NCBI GenBank assembly: GCA_001662655.1
Contig: KV460268.1
Reading direction: 5' to 3' (one strand)
DNA: 64,000 nucleotides
From: Pseudogymnoascus verrucosus
Taxonomy: Eukaryota
Below the pieces are notes generated by a model. That model did not search any database. It was not told the origin of the DNA and saw nothing but the letters and a program-made list of their open reading frames with translations. The translations under genes and the position numbers were made by a program. Shown here piece by piece: positions 28,004-47,300 of this stretch (position 1 is its first letter; each line of letters starts with the position of its first letter).

Positions 28004-29171
28004 TCAATTAAGTACCTTCCAAGTGGCACTCACCCCCCATCTCACACCATCAACATCGACCTCCCAAGCAGGTCCCTTAACACCAACCACCTTTCCCACT
28101 GCCGCTTGTTCTCCCTTTCTAATGCCCTCACTCATTCCCTCCTCTCCTCCCAGCATCATACGAATCGGGTATACACCCCCCCCCTCATAACTGTTGCTGC
28201 CCACCCGACGACCCCTGACAAGAGTCATCCCAGCCCCATAGCCTCCTGTAACTTCATCCACCGCAATCTTGATCTTCCATCCATCTTCTCGAACAGGATT
28301 CCTGGCACTCCTCGCCGCCTGACTTTCACGGTCGACAAGCCAGCCTCTAACCTCCGCAGCCAGGCCTCCGGCCAAGAATTTCTGCCCCCTCCGTCGCGGG
28401 GAGAAATGCTCTGGGAGAGGCTCCACAGCTGCTTCGCGTTCTTCGTCCGGAGGTTTGAAGCGTGGTGGTCGGAGGAAAGCATCGGCGGATTCAATAGGAG
28501 CAGGTGTGGACGAAGTGGGCTTCGAAGGTGTCGAGAGGACGAAGCGCGGAGCACTGGGAGGAGGGCGATAAGCTGGAGGAGGTGGTGACGACAAAGTTGG
28601 CGGCTCCATAGCGAGCAGATCTTCAAAGTCATCATCCATTCCATGACCATGCTTCTGTTGGTCAAGCTCTTCATCCTCATCCTCGAAGTCAACATTGGTA
28701 TCGCCATAATTTCCACCATCGCAAGGCTGGGAGCTGAGAATCGGTTCCAAGCTCAGCCTCCTCCGTTTCAATGCCGGGCTTTGAAAGGCTACCTCTTCAT
28801 CATCCTCCCATGTCTGTGAGTGTAAATCCGCATATGCCGCTCGACGCCTTTCATTTAATCTTGCCACGTGATCATCCTGCTCATCGTCCTTTCCACGATG
28901 TCCGCTCACCCCCATGCTGGCAGCCGTATTAAATCGAGGCGTGTTCACAGCATGCTGAGATCCAATAATTCCTGCGCCCTGCGAGGCTGCAAAAGAGAAT
29001 CTCGGTGTGGCCTTAAACTGAGGCGCGCTGGACTGGGGTGCATGTTGGCTTGAGGCGGGCCGGCTAGGGTTCTTTATGACGAAGCGGTGAGGCGATGGTG
29101 TCTTCACAGTCTATTAGCTACATTATATGCCTCTGGAAAATGGCGTGGCTCACCACCGGTGGTGGAGACAT
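28004..29171 (-). CDS. Conserved-looking fungal hypothetical protein (disordered N-terminus, FSPRRRGQKFLAGGLAAEVRGW C-terminal domain)
   Basis: 367-aa ORF. Probable first exon ATG 29171 with a 43-nt intron 29111-29153 that joins in frame. Confidence 0.7.
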
Positions 29172-29583
29172 TGGTCTACATGGCTCCGAGGTATGAGTAA
29201 ATTTGGAGAGTATCGCGCGTCTCACTGTGTTGGGGCACGTCCAAGGCGGTGGACAAGGGCAGAACTTTGGCTGGTCAATGGAAAGCGAATGACGAGGTTG
29301 GTCAAACTGCACTTTAACAAACAACTTTTAAATGCCTTTCTTGAAAATTTAAGAGTAGCTTTAAAATAGTCTCCGAATGAAGGAATAGGTAAAAACCCAT
29401 TCCCCCACCTCCCGACGAGTTACTACAAACAATTGGAACAAAGGTGAACTCTATGATGGAATGAGCTTCTGTAGAATTCACGGAGCTAATATTTAGGTTC
29501 GCTTTTTGTTTCCCACCTCCACATTTGATAATTTCGAGAAGAAGAGAAATGTTGTGAGATTTTTAATCCCTCGGACCTAACAT

Positions 29584-30319
29584 TTAGCAGTAAGGTAGTA
29601 ATGGATTTGAACAACTTCCCGCAATAAATGCCTGACTCGTTTTAGTAACGTCCGTCATAAACAGTTGTGCTGAGGGGTCCAAGATATGATCAATAACATG
29701 CACAATCCCCTAAAAGTATGTTAGCGATGGTTATTTTATGAAATCGTTTTTCTTACATTCGTGACGGGAAGATTCGCATCAGTAACAATCGAAACATCGT
29801 TGAGCACCAGCTGGCCCCCGACAATTTGAGTCCCGACATATAAGAAACTACCCGTTTGGATGCGAGTTGACGATGTGTTAAACGCCGAGGTTTTAAGCTG
29901 CGTGTTCGGGATATAATGGTGCTGGATTAGGTTGCCCAGCCACCATTTGCCCTTTGGTGTTGCGACAAACGTGGAGTAGTAAGCTCCGGTATTGTTGAAT
30001 GCTGTATTTGATGGTGCAAAGAACGTATAGGACCAAGTTGCCTGGGAATCGAAGGCTTGAAGAAACCCTTGGTTGGAATTAGGCCTCTATTCTCGCTGGG
30101 AAAAAGACACGGCATACCTCCACATTCTGCTAAAACGCCTGCAAGAGAAGTAAGGTCATCCCTCGATTTTATAAAGTCTAGCAGAGTCGTAACATTTGAG
30201 TTTTTAGGTGGGACATAAGTTCCCTCTGGCACCGTGGCATAAGTGAGAGGCTCACGATCGATGCGATCACACAGCCCAAGAGCAGTGAGAACGATCACAG
30301 AGAAGATACAAAGCTTCAT
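29584..30319 (-). CDS. Small secreted fasciclin (FAS1) domain protein (3 exons)
   Basis: Signal peptide MKLCIFSVIVLTALGLC. FAS1 H1 motif YTFFAPSNTAF, central HHYIP, H2 motif NGIVHVIDHILDP. Ends SCSNPLLPYC*. Confidence 0.88.
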
Positions 30320-30601
30320 CTTTTGCAGTTTTTATATTAGTTGTGAGAACAGAAGTAAGTGAACTGCGTTTATTATTGATTTGACAGTGGAATAGTGCTA
30401 CCAATAAACCGATCCAGCAACGGCCCAGAGCAGCAGTACACTATTCTAAAGAGAATCAGACTTAGAATTGCTTTTTCGGATGTGCCCCGGCATTCTTTGC
30501 GGTAAATACTGCAATAGTTTGATATAATGTCCTCGCACCGGATAATGGGCAAGGTTAGGTGCGGCAGGCCGCTGTAATGCCTCAAGACCCATGGAATTTG
30601 T

Positions 30602-30616
30602 CCGATACTTTCTCCG
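30602..30616 (+). promoter_or_regulatory. Candidate Zn2Cys6 site CCG-N9-CCG (CCGATACTTTCTCCG) in the divergent FAS1/GH27 promoter
   Basis: Near-identical to the motifs at 34592-34606 and 40327-40341 (reverse strand). Confidence 0.6.
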
Positions 30617-30754
30617 GGATCGTTGGATAGCCCCGTCTCGGGTTTTGGGAAGCAACGAAACCGTGAATTAAATAAAATCGACGGAGAGTAATATATGGCA
30701 GAGGACTGACCTATTCTTGTGCAAAAGATGGCTTTCCCAGAGAGTAAACTAAAA

Positions 30755-32172
30755 ATGCTGAAAAATATCACCGTCATTGCTTTGGTCGCTTTCGGCAGTC
30801 CTTGCCTTGGAAAGATTAGTTCTGCAAAACCACAGATGGGTCAGTCTTACTTTGAGCTTGTCTCGCCGATTACCATTTTGTCATCCAAGCCAAATCCTTA
30901 GAAGCTTGCTAATGTGTGACTTAAAAGGATGGAACACGTGGAATACCTTTAAGTCTCATATAAATCAGAGTCTCATTGAAAATACTGCTTCAACTCTAGT
31001 TTCCACGGGACTAGCGCGAGCAGGATATGAATATGTAGTCATCGATGAAGGATGGCAAGCTTATACTAGGGATGCAAATGGTCGCCAACAAGCCAATTCA
31101 ACCACCTTCCCATCTGGAATATCGGGAGTCGCAAAATACATCCATAAATTAAGTCTCAAGGTTGGTATTTATAGGTAAACCACTTCCATTCTGGCATAAT
31201 AGAAATGTACTTAATTAAACAGTGATGCCGGTATATATGACTGCGGATTCTTCCCAGGCAGTTATGGCTACGAAGAGCTTGATGCAAAGACATATGCTTC
31301 TTGGGGAGTAGACTACCTCAAATATGATAACTGCGGAGGCTTTCAGGCCAATACCCTCTCTGCCCAGGAACGCTTCACGATAATGGGAAACTCTCTCAAG
31401 AACTCCGGCAGAGACATATTTTACTCCCTTTGCCAGTGGGGCAATCAGTTTCCCTGGTTTTGGGCAGACCAGTTCAGCGATTCGTACCGCATGTCTGGCG
31501 ATATAACGTCTTCATTTGCAGCTGACAAGAGCGGTGTTTGTAAGACTGCGTATTGCCTTAATACCGGGTATGCGGGTGTTAGTGTTTTGACCATGATTCG
31601 AAAGATGAGAGAGATTTCTGGATTTCAGGCTCCTGGGTCTTGGGGTATGCACACCTTTCCAAGTTTCTTGGGCAAAAATTTGACAATTTCCAGCTGATAT
31701 GGACATGCTCGAGATTGGAACCGGCACCATGACCGAGTTTGAAGAACAAACGCATTTCTCATTTTGGGCAGCTCTCAAGTCACCACTTATCATCGGCGCC
31801 GACATAACTACAATTTCTAAGTCCTCGCTTGCAATTCTTCTCAATAAGGACGCCATTGCTATATCTCAAGATAATGCTGGAGTTGCGGCTTCGTACCTGC
31901 CGGATCTGTCTATCGAAGGTTCTGTTCAGATATGGGCTGGTCCACTAAGCACTGGAAACTCCAAATATGTAATCCTAGCTTTGAACGAAGGGCAGTCTGG
32001 AGTAAATATCACGATTCCGCTGAATGGCATCTTCAAGCCAGAGAATCTCGGGGCCCGTTACAAGGCCAGGGACGTATGGGACAGGAAGAACCTCGGAACC
32101 ATCGAAAGCGACATCACCTTGACGAATGTTTCTAGTCATCAGACCAAATTGCTAGTGCTCTCGAGAGAATAA
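30755..32172 (+). CDS. Secreted GH27 alpha-galactosidase / beta-L-arabinopyranosidase (4 exons)
   Basis: Signal peptide. PQMG|WNTWN, IDEGW, VDYLKYDNC (nucleophile), YSLCQWG, YRMSGDI (acid/base), DMDMLEIG, HFSFWAALKSPLIIG, C-terminal beta-sandwich. Confidence 0.93.
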
Positions 32173-32638
32173 TTTTTAAATAATACCTAGTTTATCGCAC
32201 TGGCCAGTACACTATGCTTTCCGGCCTTTTAGTCCTGTGATGGTATCTTGACATCCTTGAGTATCTTTAATTGCACCGGCCGAGGTCCGCCAGATCGCCC
32301 GGGAATTTATTGTCGACGATTCTCGTTAATCACTCGAATTGAGATGCGGAGTTACTGTGAGTAATAAGCCTGCAAGTTTAATAATACCCCTGCCATATAC
32401 ATACCGTATTTCAACTGCACACCTCATGCTCATTTTAGAGAAGGAGAAGGGCTAGGTCCGACTCCGCTTTACAGCTCCCGTCACCCGCATATGTTTGGAG
32501 TCCTCCATTGGAAGCTTCAATGAATTTCTTAATTATAATATCTAGATTACTTCTAGAGAATTCCCACTCTTCGTTCTGAAATTGGATAATAGGTCTGTAA
32601 TACACGGCTTTATTAACTACCTATCAACGGATATCATC

Positions 32639-34242
32639 ATGAAGGTATGCCTTTCTGCACAATCAACAAGTGCTTCGTCATATTTCATTGCGTTTACAAA
32701 GAAGCTCTTTTTCTAATTCGGTTTTAGATTTTCGAGTTCATTGTTGCACTGTCGTTCTTGGCGGATAACGTTGCAGGAACCGGTGGGCTGAATGGCCTCC
32801 CAGTCCTTAATGGACCCATCAACCCAGTCAGCAATGTCCAGGGGATGAAGAAAGGGCTCGGCGAATTTGTTCATCCCGGACTGTGGCATACGCATGATGA
32901 TTTGGAGCGTATCAGACTTGGTGTTAGCAAGGGACAAGATCCGTGGAAGAGTGCATATGCTAATTTCAGTCTTGACTCGTACTCCCAAGCTTCAGTGAGT
33001 TGGCTGTATCAACCTTCAATTATGTGGCTGCTAACACGCCACAAAGTATGTGATGCAAGGACCTAAACAAGTTCTCTGTCGAGGGCGTTGCAGTAACTAT
33101 ACGACCTTCACAAACGACGCCCGTGCTGCATACCAGAACGCACTGATGTGGTACATTACTAAGAACCAGAGTCACTGGGAACGGTCTACTACCATCTTAG
33201 ATGCATGGGGAACAAACCTTACGGACATCATTGGTACTGATACCTCGCTATTGGTTGCTTTGGAAGGAGATATTTTTGTGAACGCAGCGGAGATCATGAG
33301 GTGGGAAGGAAACTGGGTCGAAAAGGGTGCGGCAGCTTCTGGTGGATCAGGATTCTCTAACCAACTGTACTGGCTGTTTGCAAGACAGTCAATCATAATT
33401 GGACAAGCCAATTATGGATTGGCAAGCATCAAGGCTCTTCTTTCTTTTGCAGTCTACCTCGATGATATATCGATGGTAAAAATGTACATTTCTCTCAGAA
33501 GGCACGAAACTGACCCTTTATAGTATAACTACGCATTGAACGCGTATCAAAACGATCCTTGCGGAGGGTTGTATGGCAACTACCATCCGAAAACTGGACA
33601 GGGCTCTGAAACTGGGAGAGACCAAGGCCATGCTGTCACTGGGCTTGGGTGGGCAGCTTACGCAGCGAGGGTGATTCAATCCCAAGGAGTAGACGTCTAC
33701 TCTGTGGGAGACAATCTACTTCTCAAGGCCGCTGAATATGCGGCGAAATTTAACCTTAACAACGACGTGCCATTTGATCCCAAGTTCTATCGATGCGAGG
33801 CTATCTTGATTAATGGGCCATGGGCCAAGCCCTCAAACATCAGTCGTGGAATTAGCGCGACTAGCCCAAACGTATGGGATGTGAGTAGCCCCTTACCGAC
33901 AAGAGAATATAATTTAATATTGCAGATCATCTACTATCAATATGTTGTTAAGAGAGGTCTCAAAGCACCATGGACTACTAAGGCAAAACAAGCAAAGGAC
34001 GCTGTTGGAGGAGAACAACGGCGTAAGTATTTGAAATTTTCCTTTGCAAGTATGAACACAGCTGACACTGTCAATTTTTAGCAACTGGAAGCGGTCTCAG
34101 TGATCAGCCTAGCTGGGGAGAATTGATTTGGTCATATCCCGGACAAGGCAAGTTCAACAACGACAATGATCGGACAATCTGGGGGGGTGGAGTTATTGGC
34201 CCGGATGGGAACGGAAACATCAACGCTGTCAAACTAGTTTAA
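32639..34242 (+). CDS. Secreted alginate-lyase-domain (PF05426-like, (alpha/alpha)n toroid) polysaccharide lyase candidate (6 exons)
   Basis: MK|IFEFIVALSFLA signal peptide (intron 32645-32727). FVHPGLWHTHDDLERIR, DARAAYQNALMWYIT, ILDAWG, NAAEIMR, GQANYG, ETGRDQGH, LLKAAEYAAKFNL, DQPSWGELIW. Confidence 0.82.
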
Positions 34243-34579
34243 AATATAATCTTTTAAAGTTTGAACTTGTTGTCCTTAAAAATGTGAACCGTGAGAAAAA
34301 TATGACGAAAGATTCGGTTCGAGAATCCTATAGCAAAGGCGTGGATTAGAACTGGCAGGGCAGCACTCATGCTTGGTCGACTAAATAACCTTTAGGCGCA
34401 AGAACTGCTAGCATACATGTATCTGAAAAAAACTAAACAAGCATTTATCAATCGGCGTTTGTAGAGCCAACCCTTACATTCTATGCGGAGAAAAGTAAAT
34501 CCAAATCCTATGGTAGTGTGCTTTCATATTCGCATTGGCATTGGCCCTTGAGATCGTCGGCCATGGCCTGTGCGCAGAA

Positions 34580-34606
34580 CCGGCGCTCTTCCCGGTACTT
34601 CCCCCG
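34580..34606 (+). promoter_or_regulatory. Three CCG triplets at 12-bp period, including CCGGTACTTCCCCCG, in the GH88 promoter
   Basis: CCG at 34580, 34592 and 34604. The second spacer matches the cluster motif. Confidence 0.6.
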
Positions 34607-35023
34607 GCGCCCGGAGAGGAGATGGCCCCTTAGTCGGCCAAGGAACATCGCGACCTTCATTGATAGAAGGTAGGTAAATCGAGCAATCACTAATGCCGGG
34701 CGAGGTAGTCGGAAACCTTCCGTGTAATTATCCCTTGGTCCGACGGTCCGATTACTCCGAGTGAGCATTGTGTTCATTACTCTGGAGCCTCTTTGGCTCC
34801 TGGCCTCCTTGCTGAACATTGCCCCCTAGAGTTTTGGACTCGAGGCGGGCTGTAACTCTCCGCAATAAACTGGTAGCCTAGTCTACATAGGTATCATAAA
34901 TATAATTTCCTCATTTGTGCTCGACATGGTCATGACACGAGTACAAGAGAGTGAGGCTGCCTTGACCTATAGCTTCTCCCTTTGCCATCTATCTTAATTC
35001 AAATCCCCTCCACCGCCCTAATC

Positions 35024-36764
35024 ATGGTGGCCTCGACAAAAAGAGCCCAATCTACATTGGCTACCAACGGCGAGTTATCTGGCGATGCTGATTCTTTGGT
35101 GAGTTTATATCCACGAGCAACTTTGGAAGGAAAATGCTAAATTGGAACATAGAAGCGCAGGAAGACTGTGCAACCCTATAAACCGGCCAATGGCATCGGA
35201 CTTGTAACGCCACCTATAAGTAACTCTTTGAGCATGAGTCCAGCGGCGAATGGATGTCTATCAGCATTGTACTCCGCTTCAACAGTAGCAAAGATTTGGG
35301 GAGTTGCGCAACGGGCCTTGAATAAGGTGCGGATTATGGTATTAGGTGCTCAGTATTGAATGTTAACATGGTTCTAGTCAGCTCCGCCAACCCTCTATCC
35401 GGAATTTACAAAACCTGGAGGCACAGCATACGTTTATCGGGAGTCCGATTTTTGGACATCTGGATTCTTCCCCGGCTCCCTATACCTCCTTTTAGAGCGG
35501 CAACGAAAGTACCCTCAGATAGCCTTTCCTCCGTCATATTCTGATCTTCCTCAGACCCCACATACGCTTCAACTACAGTGAGATAATCTCCCATCTGAAC
35601 CTCCATATTATTGCTCTTAGTTTTCTTAAATTGATGCTAACTGTATGGTAGATATGCGTGCAAGTGGTGGACGGTGAATCTCCACAAGAACTCCCTTCTT
35701 ACTACCACCCATGACCTCAGCTTCATGATCTCCCCTTGGGCAAGGAAGGCCTGGGATATTGAAAATGACTCGAAGGCATATGAAACACTGATAACTTCCG
35801 CACGAACTTTAGCCACTCGATATAGTTCAAAAACAAAATGCCTACGGTCTTGGGACACCTGTGTTACGAAGAGGTATTCGTTTACAGATCCAAGCTTAGA
35901 CTTCTTGGTAATTATAGTAAGTTCTGCATCAAACCTCAGACGAATTACAGCATTCTAGTTTGTAGTACCTAATTATGAAGCCAGGATAACATGCTAAACC
36001 TCGACCTCCTCTTCTGGGCCGCTTCCGAACTCCGCGACTCGGCCCTCCGCGACATCGCCATTTCCCACGCCGAGTCAACGCAGACTCACCATATCCGCCC
36101 TGACTTTTCCACTACTCACGTTGTAAATTTCGACCAAGCTACCGGCGCCGTAAAGGCCAAGATGACTAACCAGGGTTACGACGACTTCTCCTGCTGGTCT
36201 CGCGGCCAGGCATGGGCCATCACCGGATTCGCCCAGACCTACAACTGGACGCACAACCCTTCTTTTCTTGCCACCGCCCGTGGTTGCGCAGATTACTTCC
36301 TCGCACACCTTCCCTCCAGCGGCGTCCCACCATGGGACTTCTCCGCGCCGGCCACATCCATCCAGCTCACTGACACCAGCGCCGGGATCATAGCCTGCTA
36401 TGGAATGCTCCTTCTGCACACCTCACTCGTGGCTCTTGGGCAGCCCTCCTCCTACCTAAAAGGTGCGCTCCACATCCTTTCCGGGCTGTGCACAACGCAG
36501 CTCTCTCCACCGGCACACTTCCACAGCGACCCCATCGTGATCCCTTCCGTTGAGCATGGGACGAGCAACGAATCTGGCGAGTTAGAAGTGGAAATGGGGA
36601 AGGGCGCGGAGACGATATTGGAGGGTTCGACGATTAATAACTATGAGTTTGCGCCTAGACAGTGGGCGGATCATGGGCTGGTTTATGCGGATTATTATTT
36701 CTTGCTTGTTGGGAACTTATTGCTAGATATGGGAATTGGAGGACACATCGCGGGCCAAGTTTGA
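35024..36764 (+). CDS. GH88 unsaturated glucuronyl hydrolase, intracellular (multi-exon)
   Basis: FWTSGFFPGSLY, THDLSF and VII|DNMLNL (the two catalytic-region Asp motifs of UGL), RSWD, WSRGQAW, PPWDF, DTSAG, YADYYF. No signal peptide. Confidence 0.92.
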
Positions 36765-37062
36765 GTGTGGCTTGGGAAAGAGCTGGGTTGTGAGTTTGGG
36801 TGACATACATAGATAGGCTAGTGATGACTCTGTGGTTTTTTGGTAGATGGCGAGACAGAGGTCATATAGAATGCAATGTTAGATACCTTTTGAGATCCAT
36901 ACTATGCCTAAATTTCTATAAAACTTTACAAGTCCCTACAGTCGAATAATAGCCACGCCAAAATATGACTTTCAATGCGCCGTGCCTAGGGATACCGTGG
37001 ATTTTCGATTCCCCTACATCGCCTCCCGCCTAACCTCTCAACCCAGTAGTTCCGCTCTCTAC

Positions 37063-39919
37063 TTATTCATCCCTTTCTCCTTCCTTCCCATTCTGCCCGG
37101 AAAACATACTGACCCTCTGCGTCGGCAAAAACGAATATGTTAACGGATTCTGATACTCAAATCCATACCCCATCCCCTCCTGTCCATAATCCTCCATGCC
37201 ACCTTGTCCTTGTTTTTCTGTGGAATCAAAGAACTCGCTGAGCTGCTGTATGTTGCTCATTCCCGGGGAGGGGTTAGCGCAATGGGGCTGGAAGGCCAGG
37301 GGGAGGGGCGGGAAGGCGAGTGAGATACTGTCTGGTGAACCTTCCTGGTCGGTGATAATGGTGCCGCCGCTCACTAGTTGCTGGCCAATCGGCAGGGCTA
37401 AGTGGGAGATGGAATTATTTGGCAGAGTGTCATTACGGTTTGTGTGGCTTGGTTGGGGCTGTGTGAGTTGTGAGACAAATGCTGTTTGCTGCGCAGAAGA
37501 ATTCTGGAGATTATCCTCCGAGTATGCCGCTTGTCGGATATCGAGGGCGTGCGGGCCTCGATCGCGAGCGTGAACTAATCGTGAGGCGAACTTGGAGGCG
37601 AGATTTTGAGATACCTCATATAACCCATCTTGGGCATGCGGGCCATTCCAGCGCCGCGAGATCTCTCGGAGGCTGTTCGTCAAGGAATCGAACTCCTGCG
37701 GTAGAGGAATATTATAGTGCAAAGTGTGCGCAAGTAACATTCGCCCGCTGATGAAGAGGCAGAATGCGAACTGGGGGTTTGTGAGGGAGATGGAGTCTTG
37801 CAGATATTTTTCCGCGATAATGGAGACCTCCATAGCAGCGGCTAGGCATGTTTCGGCGCTTGAGGTGGATGGGAGCCGAATGGACCTCGCTTGCCACTCT
37901 GGCGATGGATAGGCGATTCCCTGGTGCAGGAGCCCAACGGCTGTGTTGTGAGTTATGTGAGCCAAGGTCAAGTTCGGATCGAGGACACCATCGGCATTTA
38001 ATGCACACGCTTCTCGCCATTTTTCGGGTAAAAACAACCTCCATCTAAAACGATATTAGTGTATATTCGCAGTATTCAAACCAACTGGAAGCCAATCGCC
38101 AAAAGAAACTTACTGGACGAGCCTTAAGTCTAGCTCCTTGAAGCGCATCAACCACATCTGTACGTCCTGATCATTGGACATATTCACAGCTTGTCGCAAG
38201 AAAAAGGTTGTTACAAGACTCAGGCTCTCTGACGCCTCGATGCAATAAGCAAAACCGCCAATTAGGCGTTGGTCTTCAAGTTCGGGCCTCCAAGATGGCA
38301 GAGCTCCACCAGCGGTTTTATCTGCAACTCCGAAATACGGCGTCGGGGATTTAAGAGGCCTGCCTTCCTCCCACAATGCTCCTTCGCATGGAAGACGCCT
38401 TTTGGCATCGGCACTTGTTAATGAGAAGTTCCACCCAGTGGCTATACTGCAGAATCGATCCATCAAGAAAACATTCCAGAATACGCGCCGACGCTCCTCT
38501 CTCTCTATCCAACTATTACACGGAGGGAGGAAAGCCATACGCTTGATGAGAAATTCTTCAGCAGACTGAGATTGATCCTCTTCTTCTACGCTTAGTTGTA
38601 GCTGCTCAACGGTCCTCGTCATACTTCCAACAATAGACCAGGCCGAGGGCCCACGGCCGCTGCCAATCTAGAACATAGTTAGCAAATATCCTCACATGTG
38701 ACAGCTGGGAGTGCCTTACGGTGTCGAAAGCACAAATGACGAGAGCCTGCAGATTCTCAACAGAGAAGGATTCCATACTCTGCAGAATTACTATCTGCCT
38801 GCTCTTCGTGGAATATTTCATTCTCACTTCGGCGCTGCTGACCCTCGGGTCATTGGAGAATCGAATGCACAGAGACACAATAGCGTGGAATATCGTAGTT
38901 AATTTTTGACGCTGGGCGGGATTGGCCATTCGCTCACGAAATTGCTTCACATGAAGAATCGGAATCCAGGGATGTATACTACGAAAATAAATATCGACCA
39001 AGGCGTCGATCAAATCATCTGGGGGGAGGCAATATTCCTTGTCCTCTAACATTGACTGTGGTGCTGGCTGTGGCCTCTGTTGTTGCTCTTCTTCTCCTGT
39101 GCTGTAGGCGCGTCGACGCTTTAATGGGCTGGTTATGCTACCATCAGATGGATCGAAGTCGGCCGAAAGATGCGATAGGGTAGACTTAAGTCGACTTGTG
39201 TATACTTTCAGTGTCTCGCCGGCATTTGTGGCGGAGTCCAAGGATGTGGGTGTTTGAGCCTGGATGGAATTCAGGCAATTCCAGACCTGCTGCCACAGGA
39301 CCCCTTGCCCAAGAAACATATTTTCCAGGGTCGCTTTAAATGTTGTTAGCGGCTACATATCAAATATAACTGCTAACTAAGGAAGGCAATAGCATGGCCA
39401 TGATGTGTTCAGTTGTCTCGCAAGATTAGACTGATGGAACGAGCTTCATGCTTACTTTCCAATAGAAGGCAACGAGAGCGCAGGGAATATAGAAATTGAA
39501 TATTCGCGACGCAGAACAACAAGGGGAACGGCCCAAACATACCGACCCTTTGGTTGAGTTTCTCGACTACGCCTGTCCGTAACCCCGGCTTCATCTTTCG
39601 GTCGTCATACACACAATCAACATCTTAAAAGATATTAGAATAACCCAGTAATAGCTTTTAAATATTGCAGCTTACTGAATCTCACACAATGTGAACAGGG
39701 TTGCTTCCTCGAGCATCTTGCTTTCTTCTTGCGGCATGGCTGGCAACTAGATATATCATCAGTCTGGCTGGTTCCCTTTCCTCTCAGGGAAGACCATGCA
39801 ACTCACGCTGGGCCATCATCCTCTGCTCCTCCTTTGTGTCCCTTGCCACTGCCGGTATTCGACTCTTGTACGTGTAAATCATCATCGCTCACCGCATTCT
39901 CGGCAACGTTATTGCGCAT
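37063..39919 (-). CDS. Zn(II)2Cys6 transcription factor, probable cluster regulator (multi-exon)
   Basis: CQPCRKKKARCSRKQPCSHCVRF|..CVYDDRKMKPGLRTG. Middle domain YFRSIHPWIPILH, ESFSVENLQAL, EERRRVFWNVFLMDRF, NLTLAHITHNTA. Confidence 0.9.
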
Positions 39920-40326
39920 GTTTCGATGTAGGCGCGAAAGTTTCGCACATTTCATTTAAACATTTCATTCGCAAAGGCTCTACAAACATAAATAAATGGT
40001 GCTGAACAGCCCAGAGGTGCGGAGAAGGCTCGTGCTCCTCGCACATAAGCACGCTACAGGGGTATATACCAAGGTAGCGTGCGGGGTACCGATCTGTTGG
40101 AGGGATTTAAGAATTTACACTACCTACAGATCATGTGATTTCAGACCTTCCTCCTTTTTATTTTTGCTCTCTGCAGCAGCTAATATCTGCACGCATCGCA
40201 GACTCATAATTCCACAGGTCAGACCGGCTCTTACAGTGGAAATGCCATCCGTTGAATATAGCTAGGTTGCTAGGTATACCGGGCCCCCTCTAGTCCTCTT
40301 AGTCATCTCCTAACGTACTATCAGAG

Positions 40327-40353
40327 CGGAGGAAGTGTCGGAGTTTTCTCCGG
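40327..40353 (-). promoter_or_regulatory. Three CGG triplets at 12-bp period (reverse CCGACACTTCCTCCG) in the divergent TF/MFS promoter, overlapping a CreA-type GCGGAG
   Basis: CGG at 40327, 40339 and 40351. GCGGAG at 40326-40331. Confidence 0.6.
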
Positions 40354-40613
40354 CACAACACACCCCCCTCGTAACTGTTTCCCCACATCTACTTCGCTGT
40401 CCTAAATCTGCGGGGCCCCATACGGGGTGAAGCGGAGAGAGTGGAGCCGCTGAGTCCTAGTATCCATCTCTTCTCCGCGCCGGCCAATGCGATTAAATGT
40501 CTTAGCTATATATCTTGCATGCATCCATTTCAACTCTCATAACGCTCATTACGCTGATTCTCTCTATCACCCAAAACCAAAATAGCAACAGACAATATTG
40601 CGCAGCTAGCAGC

Positions 40614-42565
40614 ATGGTCCAGCAAGAGAAACCCTCGGAGGTTCGCCATGACGAGATAGCTCCCTGCACCCAGCCCGCTGAGGAAAACTATCACCAAACA
40701 AATGAAGATCAGGAGGTTTGTTCCTAATCTCATATCATACCGATGTTCGTTTACTAACTTACCCTGACTGGAAGACCGCTAAGTACGTGGGTGGAAATAC
40801 TACCTTCGTCGACGAGGAGACTAGTAACGCGCTTTTCTGGACAGTCAACAAGAGAATCCTAGCATGTATGCTCGGAACTTATTTTTGCCAATCTTTAGAC
40901 AAAGGCACCCTTGGCTTCGCCTCGATTATGGGTATCCAAGATGATGCTCACCTCGTTGGCCAAGATTATAGGTTTGTTCTCTTCGACTCGATTTACTAAA
41001 GGGGTACACCCCAGGTCTAACCTCGATCTCAGTTGGCTTGGCACAATATTATACATGGGAGTGCTTGTCGGAGAGTATCCCACCAACCTCCTGCTACAAA
41101 AACTTCCTGTTGCAAAATATGTCGCAGCCAACGTTTTTCTATGGGGCATTGTCATTGCTTGTTCAGCAGCTGCCAAAGACTTTAAGTCCTTAATGGTAGT
41201 CCGATTCCTGCTTGGCATGTTTGAATCCTGCATACAACCCGCATTTATCATCATGTACGCTCATCTGCTCCTTTAAATTCCCTGAAAAACAAAACTGACA
41301 TACATCAGGACAAGCATGTGGGCAAGTCAACATATCCCAAAATCTAACTCGCAAGCACCATCTAACACACCTATTTCAGTATACGAAACGCGAACAGACC
41401 GTCCTAACTTCGCTCTGGTATTGTATGACTGGAGTACAATTAATGGTAATTTCTATGACTCCCTAATAAAATCCATTAACCAACCTCGACATAGGTCGGA
41501 GGTATCATTGCGTGGGGTGCAAGCCACTACGTCGGGCACTCTATCTATTCCTGGCAACTCCTATTTCTCGTTCTAGGATGCGTGACGTGCGGCTGGGCAG
41601 TTTTTATCGGCTGGTGGCTGCCTGATTCTCCACTGAAGGCGAAGTGCTTCACCGAGGACCAGAAGCGAATGATGGTTGAGCGTGTCCGATCTAATGACAC
41701 TGGGATTCAAAACAAGACTTACAAGGTCTACCAGGCTCTTGAGACGATTAAAGACCCTGTTATCTGGTGCTATATCATGCTGCAGATTACTTCAACTCTT
41801 GTCATCGGTGGCCTCGGCGTGTTTTCGAATATAATCATCAAGTCCTTCGGATTCACTCTTCTACAGACCCAGCTCTTGAATATAGCACAGGGCGCTGTGA
41901 CGATTTTGATTATGGTTGGTGGTGCCACCTTAGGTCAGACAACCGGCCAGACTATTTTGGTTATGCATGTGAGTCTCCTCCTATTCCATCCTCAAAGTAT
42001 AATCTAACAAAATAAATAGACATGGACAATGTGAATTTCCTCAGAATCTAACCCTAGTATTGTATTCCAGCTAATACTACACAGCCCTCCCATAATCGGA
42101 ACCGCGGTTATCTACTCCATTACACCCACCCCCCAAACCCGCGTCGGTCTCCTGATCGCCTTCTACTGTACCCAATTCCACCTTGCACAAGGGAATCTCA
42201 TCTTTTCTCTGATCTCCCGCAACATCGCTGGCCAAACCAAGAAATCTACCGCCCTGGCCATGACCTTTGTGGCCTGGGCCGCCGGGAACATGACCGCCCC
42301 CCAGATCTTCCAGAAGAGCGATGCTCCTCGCTACAAGAATGGCTTCATAGCGCACTTCTGCCTCTACGTCCTCTTTAACATCTTCCTAGTGGTCTTGCGA
42401 CTTTTGCTTACGCGCCGCAACAAGGCGAAGCAGATCACAACAGCGACCGCACTGGCTCTCGAGGGGACGACGGACTTGAAGCAGGTGGATGGAAAAATCA
42501 CGCACGCGCGGGCGTTTGATGATTTGACGGATAAGGAGAATCCGGATTTTAGGTATGTGTTTTAG
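40614..42565 (+). CDS. MFS anion:cation symporter, Dal5/allantoate-permease family (many short introns)
   Basis: TYFCQSLDKGTLGFASIMG, WLGTILYMGVLVGEYP, RFLLGMFES, WLPDSPLKAK, NIAGQTKKST, APQIFQKSDAPRY, DLTDKENPDFRYVF. Confidence 0.92.
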
Positions 42566-42846
42566 GGGAGTGGGAGGATAGTTCCTGTTGCTTGAGGCGA
42601 CTCCGCGGTTGGGAGATTGGGCTGCTATGTGTATACAATGAAACCAGTCGTGAGATGCAGACACACTCTTGCGCACCGATATTCCCCTCAGAAATGAAGC
42701 AAAAGATACCTCTTTCGTAATTGCCGTTCAAGATTTTATCTATCCTTGTGCAGCTATGCCTCGTGAAATATTTAATAAGTATTACAGATGTGATTATATA
42801 AGTTGTGATGAATTCTTAGCTACCATGTTTTGACAGTTTAAACTCA

Positions 42847-43768
42847 TTACGGATTAACGACCCTTCGGCCATCCGTCTGGCCATCGCTTACGTCGTACCA
42901 ACTGATGTTGTCAAAATACAACGTTCTGGTTCCATCATTGTAATTCTCAATATCTACAAGAAAGGTTACTAAAAAATTATTTGTGATATACTCGGAAATG
43001 TTTAAAAGGGAGGGGACGAGCGGGGGGGGAATTATATGTGTGTGTACATATATATATATATTGGGACCACCTACCATAAGCATACTGGCCATTTTTGAAA
43101 TAGAATCCACTGGCGAGCGCATCATCGGACCAACTGTCACCAAAACCGACGTTAATGTTTTTTGAACTGTACACATTGTCGCCATTGTACCACACCTCCT
43201 ACGCGCCCTTTTCTGCTGCGGAGACCTTGAAGCGGACGATGACACTGTTCCAAGTATCCCGCGCAGTGGAGCTCACGATGACATGCTGTGTAGGATTTTC
43301 GCAGGATGAACGATGATCGACGACCAGCTGATTGCTCGTGATGGTAAGAGTTCCACACCAGCTCGAGCACCCCCCCGGGCAGAACTGCTGGGCAACAACT
43401 GTTGACTTGTCGGTTGGGAAGGAGGAGCTGGGAACATAGAGGGCAAATCCCTGACAGCCTTCATTCTTCAGAATCTCGTTGGTTTTGCCAGAATCGAAAT
43501 GGCAAATCTCGGCCCCCTTGTCGTCTCGCGTCCCATCGTAGTTGCTCTCATCAAAATACACCTCGAGCTTGCCGGAGCCAGCGTAGACCGGCGACTTGCT
43601 CGCTGCTTGGGCGTAAGAGGGCGACTTCTGGTTGCACGCAGAGAATGGGCCTAAAGACCCTTCGAATCCACTAGCCTTCAGCGTTGATGGGCATCCCTCC
43701 GAGTTGTCATAGTAATAAACACCTACTCTCCATAGTTCTATTGCGATCACCGTGCGTAGAAACTTCAG
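42847..43768 (-). pseudogene. Disrupted beta-jelly-roll polysaccharide lyase-like gene (PF14099 / PL20-heparinase-I-like fold)
   Basis: One frame reads ...KGAEI..QGFALYVP..VVAQQF..DTWNSVIVRFKVSAAEKGA*EVWYNG..FYFKNGQYAY|DIENY..RTLYFDNISWY. In-frame TAG at 43199-43201, intron 42954-43074, no in-frame ATG (CTG at 43768 heads KFLRTVIAI). Confidence 0.75.
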
Positions 43769-44309
43769 TCTATATTCTGGAGGTTTGCGTTCTTGCGATA
43801 CGCAAGGGTTACGTGCGGGGTACGGGGTAAGGAGCCCCGGGTTTGGTGTCGTCTGTTCCTATGATCTTCACTTGAAGCGATCGTGATGTCTGTCTTGGGC
43901 GGAACGTGGCCCGAACGCGGCCACAGCAATAGTTACTTCAATTCCACGATACTAATCGCACTTATAATTGGTGATTGACCGCCGTACTATATATGGGTAA
44001 GCAACCTCGAACTATAGTCTCAATGCTGTCGAGAGGCATAGCAAATCGAAACCGTCAAATCCTCGCTTGCAAATAAGGTATGGCGCTCCTTCATGCATCT
44101 GTGCCCAATGCTCAGCCTCGTGTCGTGCATGCATCTATCCTTCAGTCCATTCTCTCCGTTCCAACGACGAAAGTTATGCCTATAAAGTTAGACGACAAGT
44201 GATTGATTCCGGTACTGTTGATCGCATTGGCACGATTGTGCTTGCTAGTCAAAGCTTGGGCGCCCTGTAAATCAGCTGGACTCGAGCTACCACTCTGGGC
44301 ATTACAAAC

Positions 44310-47300
44310 ATGGCAGACCCAGTTGGGGCCGGCGCCGGGATTGTTGGCGTCATTGGTCTAGCCATCCAAGTCACGCAGGTTGTGGTCCAATTTGGTATGG
44401 ACTGGAAAAATGCGCCAGATGATGTTAAGGCATTCATGGCCGAATTAGGGGCTCTGAAGACCGTGTTGTCAGAAACAAATACCAATATCCTCCTCAATGC
44501 AGACTTTGAAGCGGCCTTTCAGGACCAACCGTCGGTACTATTATCTCAATTGGGGCCTAATGCTCCGTCAACAACAGACACAAAGCGGTTGCTAGAGATC
44601 TGCAAGAAAGAGCTGGAATCGTTGCTTAAAGAGCTGAAAAAGAGGGGAGAAGGCCATCAATTAGGTTGGGGGAGATTCAAAAGTGCCTTTTTGGCTCAAG
44701 ATACTCGAGATTCGGTTGAAAATCTATGCCGACAATGTCAGCTGTTGAACAGCATGCTCTCGATCGACGCGGCTGTGCTGGGAGCAACCACGTATAAAGA
44801 AGTCAAGGAGGCACGGAAAGAGCAACAGGAATGGCACGAGGCCGAAGAAAAGATTTCCATGGCTATAAGAGGTGGCGTAGACGAGTCTAACTCGCGACAA
44901 GAGAATCAAATACGGAAGCACCAGGACCAAGCAATTCTCGACTGGCTTACCCCTATCGATTACGCTCCTCAACAGAGCGATTTTATCAGTCGGCGACAAA
45001 CAGGGACTGGACAGTGGCTTCTCGATTCGACAGAGTTCCAGTCATGGCTTATGACAGAAAAACAGACGTTGTTATGTCCGGGAATTCCAGGTTCAGGGAA
45101 GACAATTCTTACGTCAATTGTGATAGAAGAGCTTATCATGCAATTTGGCAATGATAAAAACATAGGCATCGCATATCTCTATTGCAACTTCCGGCGCCGA
45201 GATGAGCAGAAGATTAACGACTTATTACAAAGTCTTCTCAAACAGTTAGCTCAAGGTTTAAATCCTCTACCAGACGCTGCAAAATCTCTCTACGCTAAAC
45301 ATATTAATATCCGAACGCGGCCAACATTAGATGAGCTCTCACAGGCTCTACATGCAGTTGCTGCTTTGTATACAAAGGTCTTTATCATTGTTGACGCCCT
45401 CGATGAATGTCTAATGACAGGTAGCCACCGATCGAATTTTCTATCGAGGATCTTTGATGTCCAAGAAAAAAGTGGATCAAACCTGTTTATGACATCAAGA
45501 CATATACCAGAAATCATTGAAATATTTAGCGGGCATACATTGTTGGAGATTCGTGCATTAGAAAGTGATGTACGGAAGTATGTGGATGGCAACATATCAA
45601 ATCTGCCGTCTTTCGTTAGGCGCAGTCCCGAGTTACAAGAGGAAGTTAAGACTGGGATCGTGGAAGCTGTTGATGGCATGTATGTAATATATACTCAAGC
45701 CCTTTCAAAACACTAATTATTCATATAGGTTCTTGCTCGCGCACCTTCATCTAGATTCTTTAATTGGAAAAAGATCACCGAAGGCTGTCCGAACTGCATT
45801 GAAATCGCTCCCCTCTGGATCCAACGCATACGACGAAGCCTATAAGGATGCAATGATTCGAATTGAGGGACAACTGTTGGATCAAAAAGGCCTTGCTTGG
45901 CAGGTACTATCATGGATCACTTGTGCGAAAAGACCTTTGACAATGGTTGAACTCCAGCATGCACTTGCGATAGAACTAGGCGAATCTAGCCTCGACGAAG
46001 ATAACCTCCCACAAATTGAGGATATGGTCTCAGTTTGTGCCGGATTAGTCACTGTCGACGAGGAAAGTGAAATCATTCGACTGGTTCATTATACAACACA
46101 GGAGTACTTTGAGCGAACGAAGGAAACATGGTTTCCAAATCTGGAGGCTGAAATTACGAAAATCTGCGTCACATATCTCTCATTTGATACGTTTAAAGGT
46201 GGAGTCTGCCAGAACGACAAGGAGTTTGAAGAACGACAACAGTCAAACCAACTTTACAATTACGCCTCATTTAATTGGGGTCACCACGCGCGCGAAGCTT
46301 ATACATCTATCCCAGAAGTCCACAGCTTTCTCGAAACAGATGGTCAACTTCAGGGATCTATCCAAGTACTACTAGTCAAGAAGACGCATTACTTGGGCGA
46401 GTCACAGTATAGCCGAGTCTTTCAAAATGGGTTGATAGGAATACACTTAGCAGCATATTTCGGAGTTGAAAAAACAGTACAATATTTCCTCGGCACTTAT
46501 ATCTCAGATGTGAAAGATAAATCTGACCGAACGCCACTGTCGTGGGCTGCAGCGAATGGACACGAAGCTGTAGCTAAACTGCTGTTAGCGAACAACGCTG
46601 ATATAACCTAAAGGATACACGCTGGGGTCAGACGCCACTGTCGTGGGCTGCGGAGAATGGCCAGGAAGCTATGGTTAAGCTGCTGGTAGCGAACAACGCC
46701 GATATTGAATTGAAGTGTACAAGATATGGCTGGACGCCACTGGTGTGGGCCGTGGTAAATGGGCGCGAAGCTGTAGTAAAGTTTCTACTAGAGAGCGGTG
46801 CTGAGTTCAACTCACAAGATAACTCCAACCAGACGCCGCTGTCATGGGCTGCAGTGAAAGGGCATGAAGCTATATTCAAGCTGCTGTTGGAGAAAGGCGC
46901 TGATATCGATTTAAAGGATGACAAAACCCGAGCACCACTATCGTATGCTGCAGAGTACGGACACGAAGCTATACTCAAGCTACTGCTCGTAGATAGTGCC
47001 GAGGTTAACTTGAAGTCTACATATTTGAGCAGGACGCCGCTGGTGTGGGCCGCACCGAATGGACATGTAGCTGTAGTCAAGTTACTGCTACAACACAATG
47101 CAGAGGTCGACGCAGAGGACAACCATAACCGGACGGCCTTATCGCATGCGGCAGAGCGCGGGCACGAAGCTTTAGTTAAACTGCTGCTCGCGTACAATGC
47201 TAAGGTCAACGTAGAGGACGGCTCGGAACGAACGCCGCTGCTGTATGCTGTACGGGGTAATCACGAAGCTATAGTCAAGATGCTGTTGGAGAAACACGCT

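What the first reader, a model, noticed from the sequence alone, without database searches (positions are those of the whole stretch)
30602..40353. Shared 15-bp motif CCG-RYACTTYCY-CCG in three cluster promoters: candidate operator of the resident TF
Seen: CCGATACTTTCTCCG (30602-30616, FAS1/GH27 divergent promoter), CCGGTACTTCCCCCG (34592-34606, GH88 promoter) and CCGACACTTCCTCCG (reverse of 40327-40341, TF/MFS divergent promoter). Two sites extend to three triplets at exact 12-bp period (34580/34592/34604 and 40327/40339/40351). The lyase promoter has the same spacing with a different spacer (32287/32299). Established: Zn2Cys6 proteins bind CGG triplets at fixed spacing. Inference: a direct-repeat N9 site defining the regulon, with possible autoregulation. 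It supports the cluster as a functional unit independently of the protein calls.
Basis: partly seen in the sequence, partly recalled or inferred. Interest (0 to 1): 0.75.

Follow-up and report, generated by a model that had tools for sequence, protein, structure and literature searches.

The report
Candidate operator in fungal uronate-polysaccharide cluster
Three promoters of a conserved fungal gene cluster for breaking down glucuronic-acid polysaccharides share a 15-base motif built on CCG triplets spaced 12 bases apart, which is probably the docking site of the cluster's own zinc-cluster regulator, although binding has not been shown.

Summary
CCGRYACTTYCYCCG occurs three times in 64 kb, at 30602(+), 34592(+) and 40327(-), each in a different cluster promoter. 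No copy has exactly one mismatch.

An unanchored search gives only marginal support. The motif is the top 15-mer triple in the four promoters, but 23 of 1000 shuffles and 12 of 400 control sets do as well.

The stronger signal is the scaffold:
- Same-strand CCG triplets 12 bp apart occur 10 times, in all four cluster promoters. Six-fold more control intergenic DNA has 2.
- A composition-matched null reaches this in 1 of 6000 runs.
- Given those anchors, the shared spacer has P about 0.0003-0.0015.

The resident regulator is a Gal4-like Zn2Cys6 protein with a near-invariant DNA-binding domain. It sits beside GH88, a PL38-like lyase and GH27 in several fungal classes.

Each site's 3' triplet also fits the CreA/Cre1 consensus SYGGRG.

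Binding, conservation in orthologous promoters and genome-wide frequency could not be tested, because no fungal genome DNA was available.

Verdict: probably a real cis-element and a plausible operator, a new member of a known kind.

The parts
30602..30616 (+). Site 1, CCGATACTTTCTCCG. Two CCG triplets 12 bp apart in the fasciclin/GH27 divergent promoter. The 3' end reads CCGGAG on the other strand (SYGGRG).
34580..34606 (+). Site 2 array, CCG-GCGCTCTTC-CCG-GTACTTCCC-CCG. Three triplets at a 12-bp period in the GH88 upstream region. All three are CCGG palindromes. The 15-mer motif is 34592-34606.
40327..40353 (-). Site 3 array, read on the minus strand as CCG-GAGAAAACT-CCG-ACACTTCCT-CCG. Three triplets at a 12-bp period in the TF/MFS divergent promoter. 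The 15-mer motif is 40327-40341.
32287..32301 (+). CCGCCAGATCGCCCG. An N9 CCG pair in the lyase promoter with an unrelated spacer. It matches 5 of the 9 spacer positions of the IUPAC motif, which is not significant.
30488..30502 (-).
40411..40425 (-).
37063..39919 (-). Resident Zn2Cys6 transcription factor with introns. It has Zn_clus and Fungal_trans domains. One exon is 100% identical to an 804-aa Pseudogymnoascus protein (P0003).
29736..30319 (-). Fasciclin (FAS1) domain gene. The 3' limit is approximate.
30728..32172 (+). GH27 (Melibiase_2 plus Melibiase_C) gene with introns.
32639..34242 (+). Lyase of the 'chondroitin AC/alginate lyase' family, with a weak Pfam Alginate_lyase hit (E=0.002). 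Probably CAZy PL38. That assignment is inferred from a paper on Sporothrix and was not tested here.
35024..36764 (+). GH88 unsaturated glucuronyl hydrolase. No signal peptide is evident in the N-terminal exon.
40614..42565 (+). MFS_1 transporter gene with introns.
42850..43858 (-). PL20-like (Pfam Polysacc_lyase, E=3e-4) ORF pieces. There is no Met in the 219-aa ORF and no N9 CCG pair upstream. Membership in the regulon is doubtful.

Best explanation
The three 15-mers are the best-conserved copies of a cis-regulatory element built from CCG triplets in direct repeat with a 12-bp period (CCG-N9-CCG). Two of the loci extend to three triplets.

Every promoter of a conserved uronate-polysaccharide utilisation cluster carries at least one such pair. 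The cluster comprises fasciclin/GH27, a PL38-like lyase, GH88, and the Zn2Cys6 TF with an MFS transporter.

The most likely reader is the cluster's own Gal4-type Zn2Cys6 factor. Each zinc cluster would contact one CCG/CGG triplet, and a coiled-coil dimer (or two overlapping dimers on the three-triplet arrays) would set the spacing. The RYACTTYCY spacer would add affinity. The copy in the TF/MFS divergent promoter would give positive autoregulation.

The 3' triplet of each strong site lies inside a CreA/Cre1-type SYGGRG consensus. The element may therefore be composite, with a glucose repressor competing with the pathway activator.

Shown: the sequence facts, the enrichment statistics, the TF domain architecture and the synteny.
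Inferred: binding, stoichiometry, activation, autoregulation, CreA competition and the glucuronan-type substrate.
For: 1. The motif occurs 3 times in 64 kb, all in cluster promoters. None of the 21 control intergenic regions has one, and no copy in the window has exactly 1 mismatch.

2. Same-strand CCG-CCG spacing of 12 bp:
- 10 pairs in 2,317 bp of cluster promoters, at 6 loci, in 4 of 4 promoters. Control intergenic DNA has 2 pairs in 14,692 bp.
- Taking the maximum over d=3-30, a count of 10 or more is reached in 0 of 5000 dinucleotide shuffles (these shuffles have fewer CCG), in 0 of 20000 random placements that keep the triplet counts, and in 1 of 6000 second-order Markov sequences with matched CCG count.
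- CCG at d=12 is the strongest periodic signal among all 32 strand-collapsed triplets and all distances 3-30.

3. Given the N9 anchors, spacer similarity across three promoters has P=0.00145 (random real 9-mers) and P=0.00025 (permuted spacers).

4. A hypothesis-free 15-mer search returns the same triple.

5. The TF has the CX2CX6CX5CX2CX6C pattern, the Zn_clus and Fungal_trans domains, and an RKKKARC segment. It aligns to Lac9 (E=6.6e-7) and to Gal4 (E=8.6e-5) with no gap from the sixth Cys through the coiled coil.

6. The DNA-binding domain is near invariant in 34 orthologues from Leotiomycetes to Aspergillus.

7. TF-GH88, TF-lyase and GH27-GH88 adjacency is conserved. The evidence is neighbouring locus tags in Verticillium albo-atrum, Verruconis, Hypoxylon texense, Sporothrix eucalyptigena, Cadophora, Diaporthe and Scytalidium, plus fused GH27-GH88 and GH27-lyase gene models.

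8. No flank similarity extends beyond the motif, so it is not a repeat or mobile element. No Rfam match was found at 29000-45000.

9. Direct CGG repeats are an established site class for Zn2Cys6 factors: AmyR/InuR use CGGN8CGG (passages of PMC5468973) and AcuK/AcuM use CCGN7CCG (passage of PMC12719309).
Against: - The unanchored similarity is weak: 23 of 1000 shuffles and 12 of 400 control sets do as well at K=15, and 20 of 300 at K=16. At K=10, 12 and 18 other words win.
- There are only three full sites and four promoters, and the control DNA is only 14.7 kb from the same window.
- The lyase promoter, which serves the key enzyme, has the spacing but not the spacer. The PL20-like ORF has neither.
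- Counting only the 8 independent d=12 pairs, the matched null reaches 8 or more in 44 of 6000 runs.
- The DNA-binding domain aligns with Gal4 with the same linker length. Naively this predicts an inverted CGG-N11-CCG site, yet that form is not enriched (2 in the cluster against 3 in the control).
- At CCGG palindromes the direct reading cannot be told from CGG-N8-CCG or CCG-N10-CGG.
- Part of the conserved core equals the CreA consensus. SYGGRG and CGGAG/CGGAGA words are enriched generally in these promoters, so a shorter half-site or another protein could account for much of the signal.
- There is no binding, expression or orthologous-promoter evidence.
Confidence: 0.5

Rival explanations
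1. The element is real but is read wholly or partly by another protein. The conserved 3' block C-Y-CCG-S is the reverse complement of SYGGRG, the CreA/Cre1 carbon-catabolite-repressor consensus. These CAZyme promoters would then simply be rich in CreA sites, often in close pairs, while the resident TF binds elsewhere or through a different word.
For: - Each of the three sites contains an SYGGRG match on its 3' triplet: CCGGAG at 30612, CCGGGG at 34602 and GCGGAG at 40326.
- SYGGRG density is 8.2 per kb in cluster promoters against 3.8 per kb in controls (19 in 2,317 bp against 56 in 14,692 bp).
- GCGGAG occurs 8 times against 9, and 11 of 14 promoter CTCCG words are followed by C or G.
Against: - SYGGRG covers only 6 of the 15 conserved positions. 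It does not explain the 5' CCG, the ACTT core or the strict 12-bp period.
- CCG at d=12 is the top periodic signal, and no fixed spacing of CreA sites is known to me (recalled).
- The two-fold enrichment is partly a by-product of the CCG/CCGG enrichment itself.
Confidence: 0.2
2. The functional unit is a short half-site, (T)CTCCG = CGGAG(A), bound by monomers or loosely spaced dimers of the Zn2Cys6 factor. The 15-mer and the exact N9 spacing would then be an over-reading of a few half-site clusters.
For: - CGGAGA/TCTCCG is the most enriched hexamer: 9 in the cluster against 5 in the control, Bonferroni-corrected P=0.034.
- CGGAG occurs 14 times against 25, and CCGG 15 against 26.
- Several isolated CTCCG words have an ACT-rich upstream context at variable distance, at 30682, 34486 and 34858.
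Against: - Half-site enrichment alone does not produce a single sharp peak at d=12. Other distances below 23 have 0-4 pairs.
- Placement and Markov nulls with the same triplet counts almost never reach 10 pairs.
- The spacer similarity is itself significant.
Confidence: 0.15
3. It is chance plus composition. GC-rich patches occur in otherwise AT-rich fungal promoters, and a reader looking for CGG-anchored words found them.
For: - Unanchored P is only about 0.02-0.07, and several widths were tried.
- The sample is small: 4 promoters and 3 full sites.
- CCG density is 1.55-fold higher in these promoters than in controls, and triplets clump in patches.
- Uniform-placement nulls do not model that clumping.
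Against: - Clumping raises all short distances, not d=12 alone.
- The matched second-order Markov null gives 1 of 6000.
- The anchored spacer test gives P of 0.0015 or less.
- CCG at d=12 ranks first of 32 triplets times 28 distances without any prior.
- No copy has exactly 1 mismatch, so there is a gap between the 3 exact sites and the background.
Confidence: 0.12

Closest known systems
AmyR / InuR sites, CGG-N8-(C/A)GG, in Aspergillus amylase and inulinase promoters
   Same: These are direct repeats of CGG triplets at a fixed spacing. They are read by a pathway-specific Zn2Cys6 activator of polysaccharide-degrading genes, probably as a dimer (passages of PMC5468973).
   Different: The spacing here is N9, a 12-bp period instead of 11. 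Two loci carry three triplets, and the spacer has a conserved ACTT core. The TF is not AmyR or InuR: no source names it so, and its nearest solved relatives are Lac9 and Gal4.
AcuK/AcuM sites, CCG-N7-CCG, in gluconeogenic promoters of Aspergillus
   Same: These are direct CCG repeats that define a regulon of Zn2Cys6 factors and are conserved across species (passage of PMC12719309).
   Different: The spacing is N7 against N9. AcuK/AcuM act as a pair of two different proteins on a genome-wide metabolic regulon, whereas here a single resident TF sits in a compact physical cluster.
Gal4 / Lac9 UAS, CGG-N11-CCG
   Same: The TF's zinc cluster, linker and coiled coil align with Gal4 and Lac9 with no gap after the sixth Cys. 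Like Gal4, it would control a sugar-utilisation cluster that includes a transporter.
   Different: The Gal4 site is an inverted repeat. CGG-N11-CCG is not enriched here (2 in the cluster against 3 in the control), and the shared element is a direct repeat.
Hap1 (CGG-N6-CGG direct repeat) and Aro80 (tandem CCG repeats).
   Same: Hap1 is a Zn2Cys6 dimer that binds asymmetrically to direct repeats and makes spacer contacts. Aro80 uses arrays of more than two CCG triplets at a fixed period.
   Different: The spacings differ (N6 and N7), and these are yeast regulators of unrelated pathways. The resemblance is from memory only.
Overlapping activator/CreA sites, for example AlcR with CreA in the A. 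nidulans alc promoters (recalled)
   Same: A Zn2Cys6 activator site shares bases with an SYGGRG repressor site, allowing competition. Here each strong site's 3' triplet lies in SYGGRG.
   Different: No binding data exist here. The overlap follows automatically from the conserved C-Y-CCG plus one flanking base, so it may be coincidental.

Membership tests
Zn2Cys6 CGG-triplet operator, direct-repeat class | Two or more CGG/CCG triplets at a fixed spacing | tested here: met
   CCG-N9-CCG is present at 6 loci. There are 10 same-strand pairs at d=12 against 0-4 at other distances below 23.
Zn2Cys6 CGG-triplet operator, direct-repeat class | Triplets in the same orientation (direct, not inverted or everted) | tested here: inconclusive
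   The direct reading is the only one present in all 4 promoters and all 3 strong sites. Where the triplet is CCGG, the same bases also give CGG-N8-CCG (3 cases) or CCG-N10-CGG (5 cases).
Zn2Cys6 CGG-triplet operator, direct-repeat class | Recurs in the promoters of the co-regulated genes and is rare elsewhere | tested here: met
   This holds within the window only. 4 of 4 cluster promoters carry an N9 pair and 3 of 4 carry the full 15-mer. None of the 21 control intergenic regions has the 15-mer, and there are 2 N9 pairs in 14.7 kb of control DNA. Genome-wide frequency was not testable.
Zn2Cys6 CGG-triplet operator, direct-repeat class | Bound by a Zn2Cys6 protein (EMSA, footprint, ChIP or DAP-seq) | not testable with these tools
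   No binding data could be obtained. Searches of the paper library for the spacing and for locus tags found nothing relevant.
Zn2Cys6 CGG-triplet operator, direct-repeat class | Conserved in orthologous promoters | not testable with these tools
   The only open genome collection holds bacteria and archaea. Orthologous proteins were found, but their flanking DNA could not be fetched.
AmyR/InuR (N8), AcuK/AcuM (N7) and Hap1 (N6) site classes | Spacing equal to that of the named class | tested here: not met
   At the three strong sites and the lyase-promoter pair the spacing is N9. In the cluster promoters d=11 (N8) has 2 pairs, d=10 (N7) has 1 and d=9 (N6) has 1.
Gal4-type inverted UAS (CGG-N11-CCG) | Inverted CGG...CCG at N11, enriched in target promoters | tested here: not met
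   There are 2 in cluster promoters (34846, 40433) with unrelated spacers, against 3 in control DNA.
Gal4-like Zn2Cys6 transcription factor (the resident gene) | Six-cysteine binuclear cluster, CX2CX6CX5-6CX2CX6-8C | tested here: met
   The sequence is CQPCRKKKARCSRKQPCSHCVRFNVDC. Pfam Zn_clus E=1.2e-9. C39, C42, C49, C55 and C58 are invariant and C65 is present in at least 90% of 34 orthologues.
Gal4-like Zn2Cys6 transcription factor (the resident gene) | Linker plus coiled-coil dimerisation element after the cluster | tested here: inconclusive
   Residues 38-96 align to Gal4 residues 3-62 through the heptad region LERLEQLFL / VATLENMFL. Dimerisation itself was not tested, because the complex-prediction job never ran.
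Gal4-like Zn2Cys6 transcription factor (the resident gene) | Fungal-specific middle homology domain | tested here: met
   Pfam Fungal_trans E=1.2e-24 on P0003. It is also found on two exons of the window.
CreA/Cre1 site | Match to SYGGRG | tested here: met
   Matches at 30612 (CCGGAG), 34602 (CCGGGG) and 40326 (GCGGAG) overlap the 3' triplet of each site. Density is 8.2 per kb against 3.8 per kb. The consensus itself is recalled.
CreA/Cre1 site | Bound by the C2H2 repressor; glucose repression of the genes | not testable with these tools
   No expression or binding data were available.

The most novel reading that the evidence does not exclude
An ancient, still unnamed Zn2Cys6 regulator has a near-invariant DNA-binding domain from Leotiomycetes to Aspergillus. 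It would be the master switch of a conserved fungal module for glucuronan-type (uronate) polysaccharide use, comprising a PL38-like lyase, an intracellular GH88, GH27 and an MFS importer.

It would read tandem CCG triplets at a 12-bp period, sometimes as three-triplet arrays. I found this spacing class for no fungal zinc-cluster factor in the paper library. Its strong sites would be interlocked with CreA sites, so that induction and glucose repression compete on the same bases.
Probability: 0.3. Interest if true: 0.55.

Novelty: new member of a known kind. Interest (0 to 1): 0.4.

Why it matters
If the site is real, it gives a testable regulatory code for a widely conserved but unstudied fungal gene cluster that appears to degrade glucuronic-acid polymers, such as glucuronan from fungal or algal walls or from bacterial slimes.

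The TF's DNA-binding domain is almost invariant across classes. One EMSA or DAP-seq experiment would therefore define the regulon in many fungi at once, including Trichoderma, Colletotrichum, Fusarium and Aspergillus.

It would add an N9 direct-repeat class to the catalogue of Zn2Cys6 sites, and it could supply an inducible promoter/TF pair. It is an incremental advance rather than a new principle.

Tried and rejected
- Mobile element or duplicated promoter: rejected. There is no similarity beyond the 15-27 bp core in a ±40 bp alignment.
- Structured RNA: no Rfam match at 29000-45000.
- Hidden coding sequence. The stop-to-stop ORFs that overlap site 1 (30376-30840, minus strand) and site 2 (34511-34825, minus strand) look like random translation and have no Pfam hit. 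They were not searched further.
- Gal4-type inverted N11 sites and other inverted or everted spacings: not enriched, except where they are the same loci seen through CCGG.
- The lyase-promoter pair as a degenerate copy of the motif: 5 of 9 spacer positions fit the IUPAC code, which is not distinguishable from chance (my count).
- PDB sequence search of two lyase exons: no hit.
- PDB search with the PL20-like ORF: only a meaningless hit at E=0.34.
- ESM Atlas on the MFS exon and on the upstream 368-aa ORF: only generic MFS or 'hypothetical protein' clusters.
- Literature:
  - No paper names a regulator for a fungal PL38/GH88 cluster.
  - Five spellings of the N9 spacing returned only an unrelated bacterial paper.
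  - Five locus tags of TF or lyase orthologues returned nothing.
  - An A. niger paper reports a putative unsaturated glucuronyl hydrolase gene that is down-regulated in araR deletion strains (passage of PMC5617896). Its orthology to this GH88 was not checked.
- The bacterial sigma-70/terminator scan of the first promoter is irrelevant to a fungus and was ignored.
It never ran because the queue was full, so there is no result either way.
- Orthologous-promoter footprinting and a genome-wide motif scan could not be attempted.

Full report
**What is in the sequence**

The window is fungal DNA: the genes have short GT-AG introns. One exon of the resident transcription factor is 100% identical to an 804-aa protein of Pseudogymnoascus sp. 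VKM F-4519 and about 90% identical to other Pseudogymnoascus proteins. One N-terminal residue differs from that protein, so the source may be a sister strain.

The extra triplets at 34580, 40339/40351 and 32287/32299 are also present.

**Gene map**

Six-frame ORFs with Pfam, PDB and homology searches give the following map.

| Gene | Coordinates | Strand |
|---|---|---|
| Fasciclin | ~29736-30319 | - |
| GH27 | 30728-32172 | + |
| 'Chondroitin AC/alginate lyase' family lyase | 32639-34242 | + |
| GH88 unsaturated glucuronyl hydrolase | 35024-36764 | + |
| Zn2Cys6 TF | 37063-39919 | - |
| MFS transporter | 40614-42565 | + |
| Weak PL20-like lyase ORF with no start codon | 42850-43858 | - |

- The lyase has only a weak Pfam Alginate_lyase hit (E=0.002).
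- The GH88 exon matches solved unsaturated glucuronyl hydrolases at E=6e-26.
- A paper on Sporothrix names a PL38 glucuronan lyase and a GH88 in that genus (passage), and Sporothrix proteins are among the close lyase hits. I therefore call the lyase PL38-like by inference.
- The flanks are housekeeping genes and an NLR.
- All motif copies lie in intergenic DNA, 112-418 bp upstream of the nearest ATG. That is site 1 to GH27 (112 bp), site 3 to MFS (273 bp) and site 2 to GH88 (418 bp).

**Is it more than chance?**

I ran four independent tests.

1. Unanchored search.
   - The best-matching 15-mer triple across the four cluster intergenic regions, on both strands, is the same three words, with a sum-of-pairs score of 37 of 45.
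   - The same score is reached in 23 of 1000 dinucleotide shuffles and in 12 of 400 random sets of four control intergenic pieces from the same window. The control sets averaged 1,935 bp against 2,317 bp.
   - At K=16 the same motif wins (20 of 300 shuffles as good). At K=10, 12 and 18 unrelated, non-significant words win.
   - On this test alone the finding is marginal.

2. Triplet spacing.
   - In the four promoters, same-strand CCG-CCG distances show a single sharp peak at 12 bp. There are 10 pairs, of which 8 remain after removing the mirror images created by CCGG palindromes. They fall at 6 loci and in all 4 promoters.
   - Every other distance below 23 bp has 0-4 pairs. The 14.7 kb of control intergenic DNA has 2 pairs at d=12.
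   - Taking the maximum over distances 3-30, 10 pairs are reached in 0 of 5000 dinucleotide shuffles (these under-represent CCG, 55 against 77), in 0 of 20000 random placements that keep the triplet and CCGG counts, and in 1 of 6000 second-order Markov sequences with matched CCG count.
   - A count of 8 or more pairs occurs in 0.17% of the placements and in 44 of 6000 Markov sequences.
   - Among all 32 strand-collapsed triplets and all 28 distances, CCG at 12 bp is the strongest periodic signal.

3. Spacer similarity given the N9 anchors. The observed similarity across three different promoters (19 of 27) has P=0.00145 when spacers are replaced by random real 9-mers from the same promoters. 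It has P=0.00025 when bases are permuted within spacers.

4. Mismatch spectrum. There are 3 exact copies, none with one mismatch and 2 with two mismatches. This is a gap rather than a continuum.

Together these make a real, cluster-specific cis-element likely, at roughly 0.85 by my judgement.

**What the element looks like**

| Site | Sequence, read 5'-3' in motif orientation |
|---|---|
| Site 1 | cat-GGAATTTGT-CCG-ATACTTTCT-CCG-G |
| Site 2 | CCG-GCGCTCTTC-CCG-GTACTTCCC-CCG-G |
| Site 3 | CCG-GAGAAAACT-CCG-ACACTTCCT-CCG-C |

- In both three-triplet arrays the conserved ACTT spacer is the downstream one.
- The orientation points towards GH27, GH88 and the TF gene respectively.
- Weaker N9 pairs with unrelated spacers lie at 30488 (-), 32287 (+, lyase promoter) and 40411 (-).
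- There is no similarity beyond the core, so this is not a repeat family.
- Discriminative k-mer counts (cluster promoters against control) put CCGG (15 against 26), CGGAG (14 against 25) and CGGAGA/TCTCCG (9 against 5, Bonferroni-corrected P=0.034) on top. The favoured half-site is therefore (T)CTCCG.

**Who reads it**

The resident TF has the six-cysteine cluster CQPCRKKKARCSRKQPCSHCVRFNVDC and Zn_clus and Fungal_trans domains. It aligns to Lac9 (E=6.6e-7) and Gal4 (E=8.6e-5) from the cluster through the linker into the coiled coil, with no gap after the sixth Cys.

In 34 orthologues from four classes the DNA-binding domain is almost invariant. None of these orthologues carries the name of a characterised regulator. 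The 'citrinin' and 'xylanolytic' labels are automatic.

| Pair | Genome | Locus tags |
|---|---|---|
| TF / GH88 | Verticillium albo-atrum | ACHAQA_005845 / 005844 |
| TF / GH88 | Verruconis gallopava | PV09_04148 / 04149 |
| TF / GH88 | Hypoxylon texense | Hte_003128 / 003127 |
| TF / GH88 | Sporothrix eucalyptigena | ..001120 / 001121 |
| TF / lyase | Cadophora M221 | IFR05_005448 / 005450 |
| TF / lyase | Diaporthe amygdali | J7T55_007854 / 007856 |
| TF / lyase | Scytalidium | g9503 / g9500 |

- Fused GH27-lyase and GH27-GH88 gene models occur in Pseudogymnoascus and Colletotrichum.
- The cluster is thus an old functional unit, and the TF is the obvious candidate reader.
- This is inference from adjacency. 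No binding was tested.

**Complications**

- A Gal4-like linker would naively predict an inverted CGG-N11-CCG site. That form is not enriched (2 against 3).
- Because many triplets are CCGG, the same bases can be read as CGG-N8-CCG (3 loci) or CCG-N10-CGG (5 loci). Only the direct N9 reading is common to all sites and all promoters.
- The conserved 3' block C-Y-CCG-S is the reverse complement of SYGGRG, the CreA/Cre1 consensus (recalled). Each strong site contains such a match, and these promoters hold 8.2 per kb against 3.8 per kb in controls. Part of the conservation may therefore serve carbon-catabolite repression, and the element may be composite.
- The lyase promoter has the spacing but not the spacer. 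The PL20-like ORF has neither.

**Comparison with known systems**

Direct CGG repeats are established sites for Zn2Cys6 factors. AmyR and InuR use CGGN8CGG (passages of PMC5468973) and AcuK/AcuM use CCGN7CCG (passage of PMC12719309). Hap1 (N6) and Aro80 (tandem CCG) are recalled only.

The present element works like these but is not a member of any of those site classes, because the spacing is N9.

A full-text search for five spellings of that spacing found only an unrelated bacterial paper. Searches for a regulator of a fungal PL38/GH88 cluster and for five locus tags found nothing. Subscription journals are not covered by that library.

**Verdict**

It is probably a real cis-element on a 12-bp CCG direct-repeat scaffold, and plausibly the operator of the resident, widely conserved Zn2Cys6 regulator (confidence 0.5).
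- It is a new member of a known kind, of moderate interest.
- Three things stayed unchecked for lack of data: conservation in orthologous promoters, genome-wide frequency, and any binding or expression evidence. The homodimer prediction also never ran, because the queue was full.

Noticed in passing
window 42850-43858 (-): A PL20-like ORF (Pfam Polysacc_lyase, E=3e-4) has no methionine in its 219 aa. A G8 run and a (TG)n/(TA)n microsatellite at about 43020-43062 lie between its two ORF pieces. It may be a decayed second glucuronan lyase, or it may have an exon I did not model. It has no CCG-N9-CCG pair upstream.
   Followed up: partly
window 3049-8160 (+): A second small sugar-use pair lies 25 kb from the cluster and is separated from it by housekeeping genes. 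It consists of a GH36/raffinose-synthase-like gene (3049-5679) followed by a Sugar_tr transporter (6316-8160). No motif copy lies there.
   Followed up: no
window 44271-47420 (+): A NACHT (NPHP3_N) - winged helix - ankyrin-repeat NLR-type gene lies directly beyond the cluster.
   Followed up: no
window 30593-30601 and 32302-32310: GGAATTTGT directly precedes the first CCG of site 1. GGAATTTAT directly follows the second CCG of the lyase-promoter pair. The two words share 8 of 9 bases next to a triplet, which is unexplained and was not tested for significance.
   Followed up: no
window 30682, 34486, 34858 (CTCCG words): Isolated CTCCG half-sites in the cluster promoters often have an ACT-containing pyrimidine-rich stretch just upstream (TTACTCTCCG, TTACTTTTCTCCG, TAACTCTCCG). 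This resembles the 3' half of the 15-mer but with a variable gap.
   Followed up: partly
window 35024-35330 (GH88 N-terminal exons): The GH88 model has an N-terminal extension of about 90 aa relative to bacterial UGL structures and no obvious signal peptide. This suggests a cytosolic enzyme acting on imported unsaturated oligomers, which would fit the neighbouring MFS gene.
   Followed up: no
proteins P0123, P0267, P0273, P0281 (other genomes): Public annotations fuse GH27 with the lyase (Pseudogymnoascus VKM F-4520) or with GH88 (Colletotrichum spp.) into single long models. These are probably mis-merged neighbours, but they are useful as evidence of conserved adjacency.
   Followed up: partly
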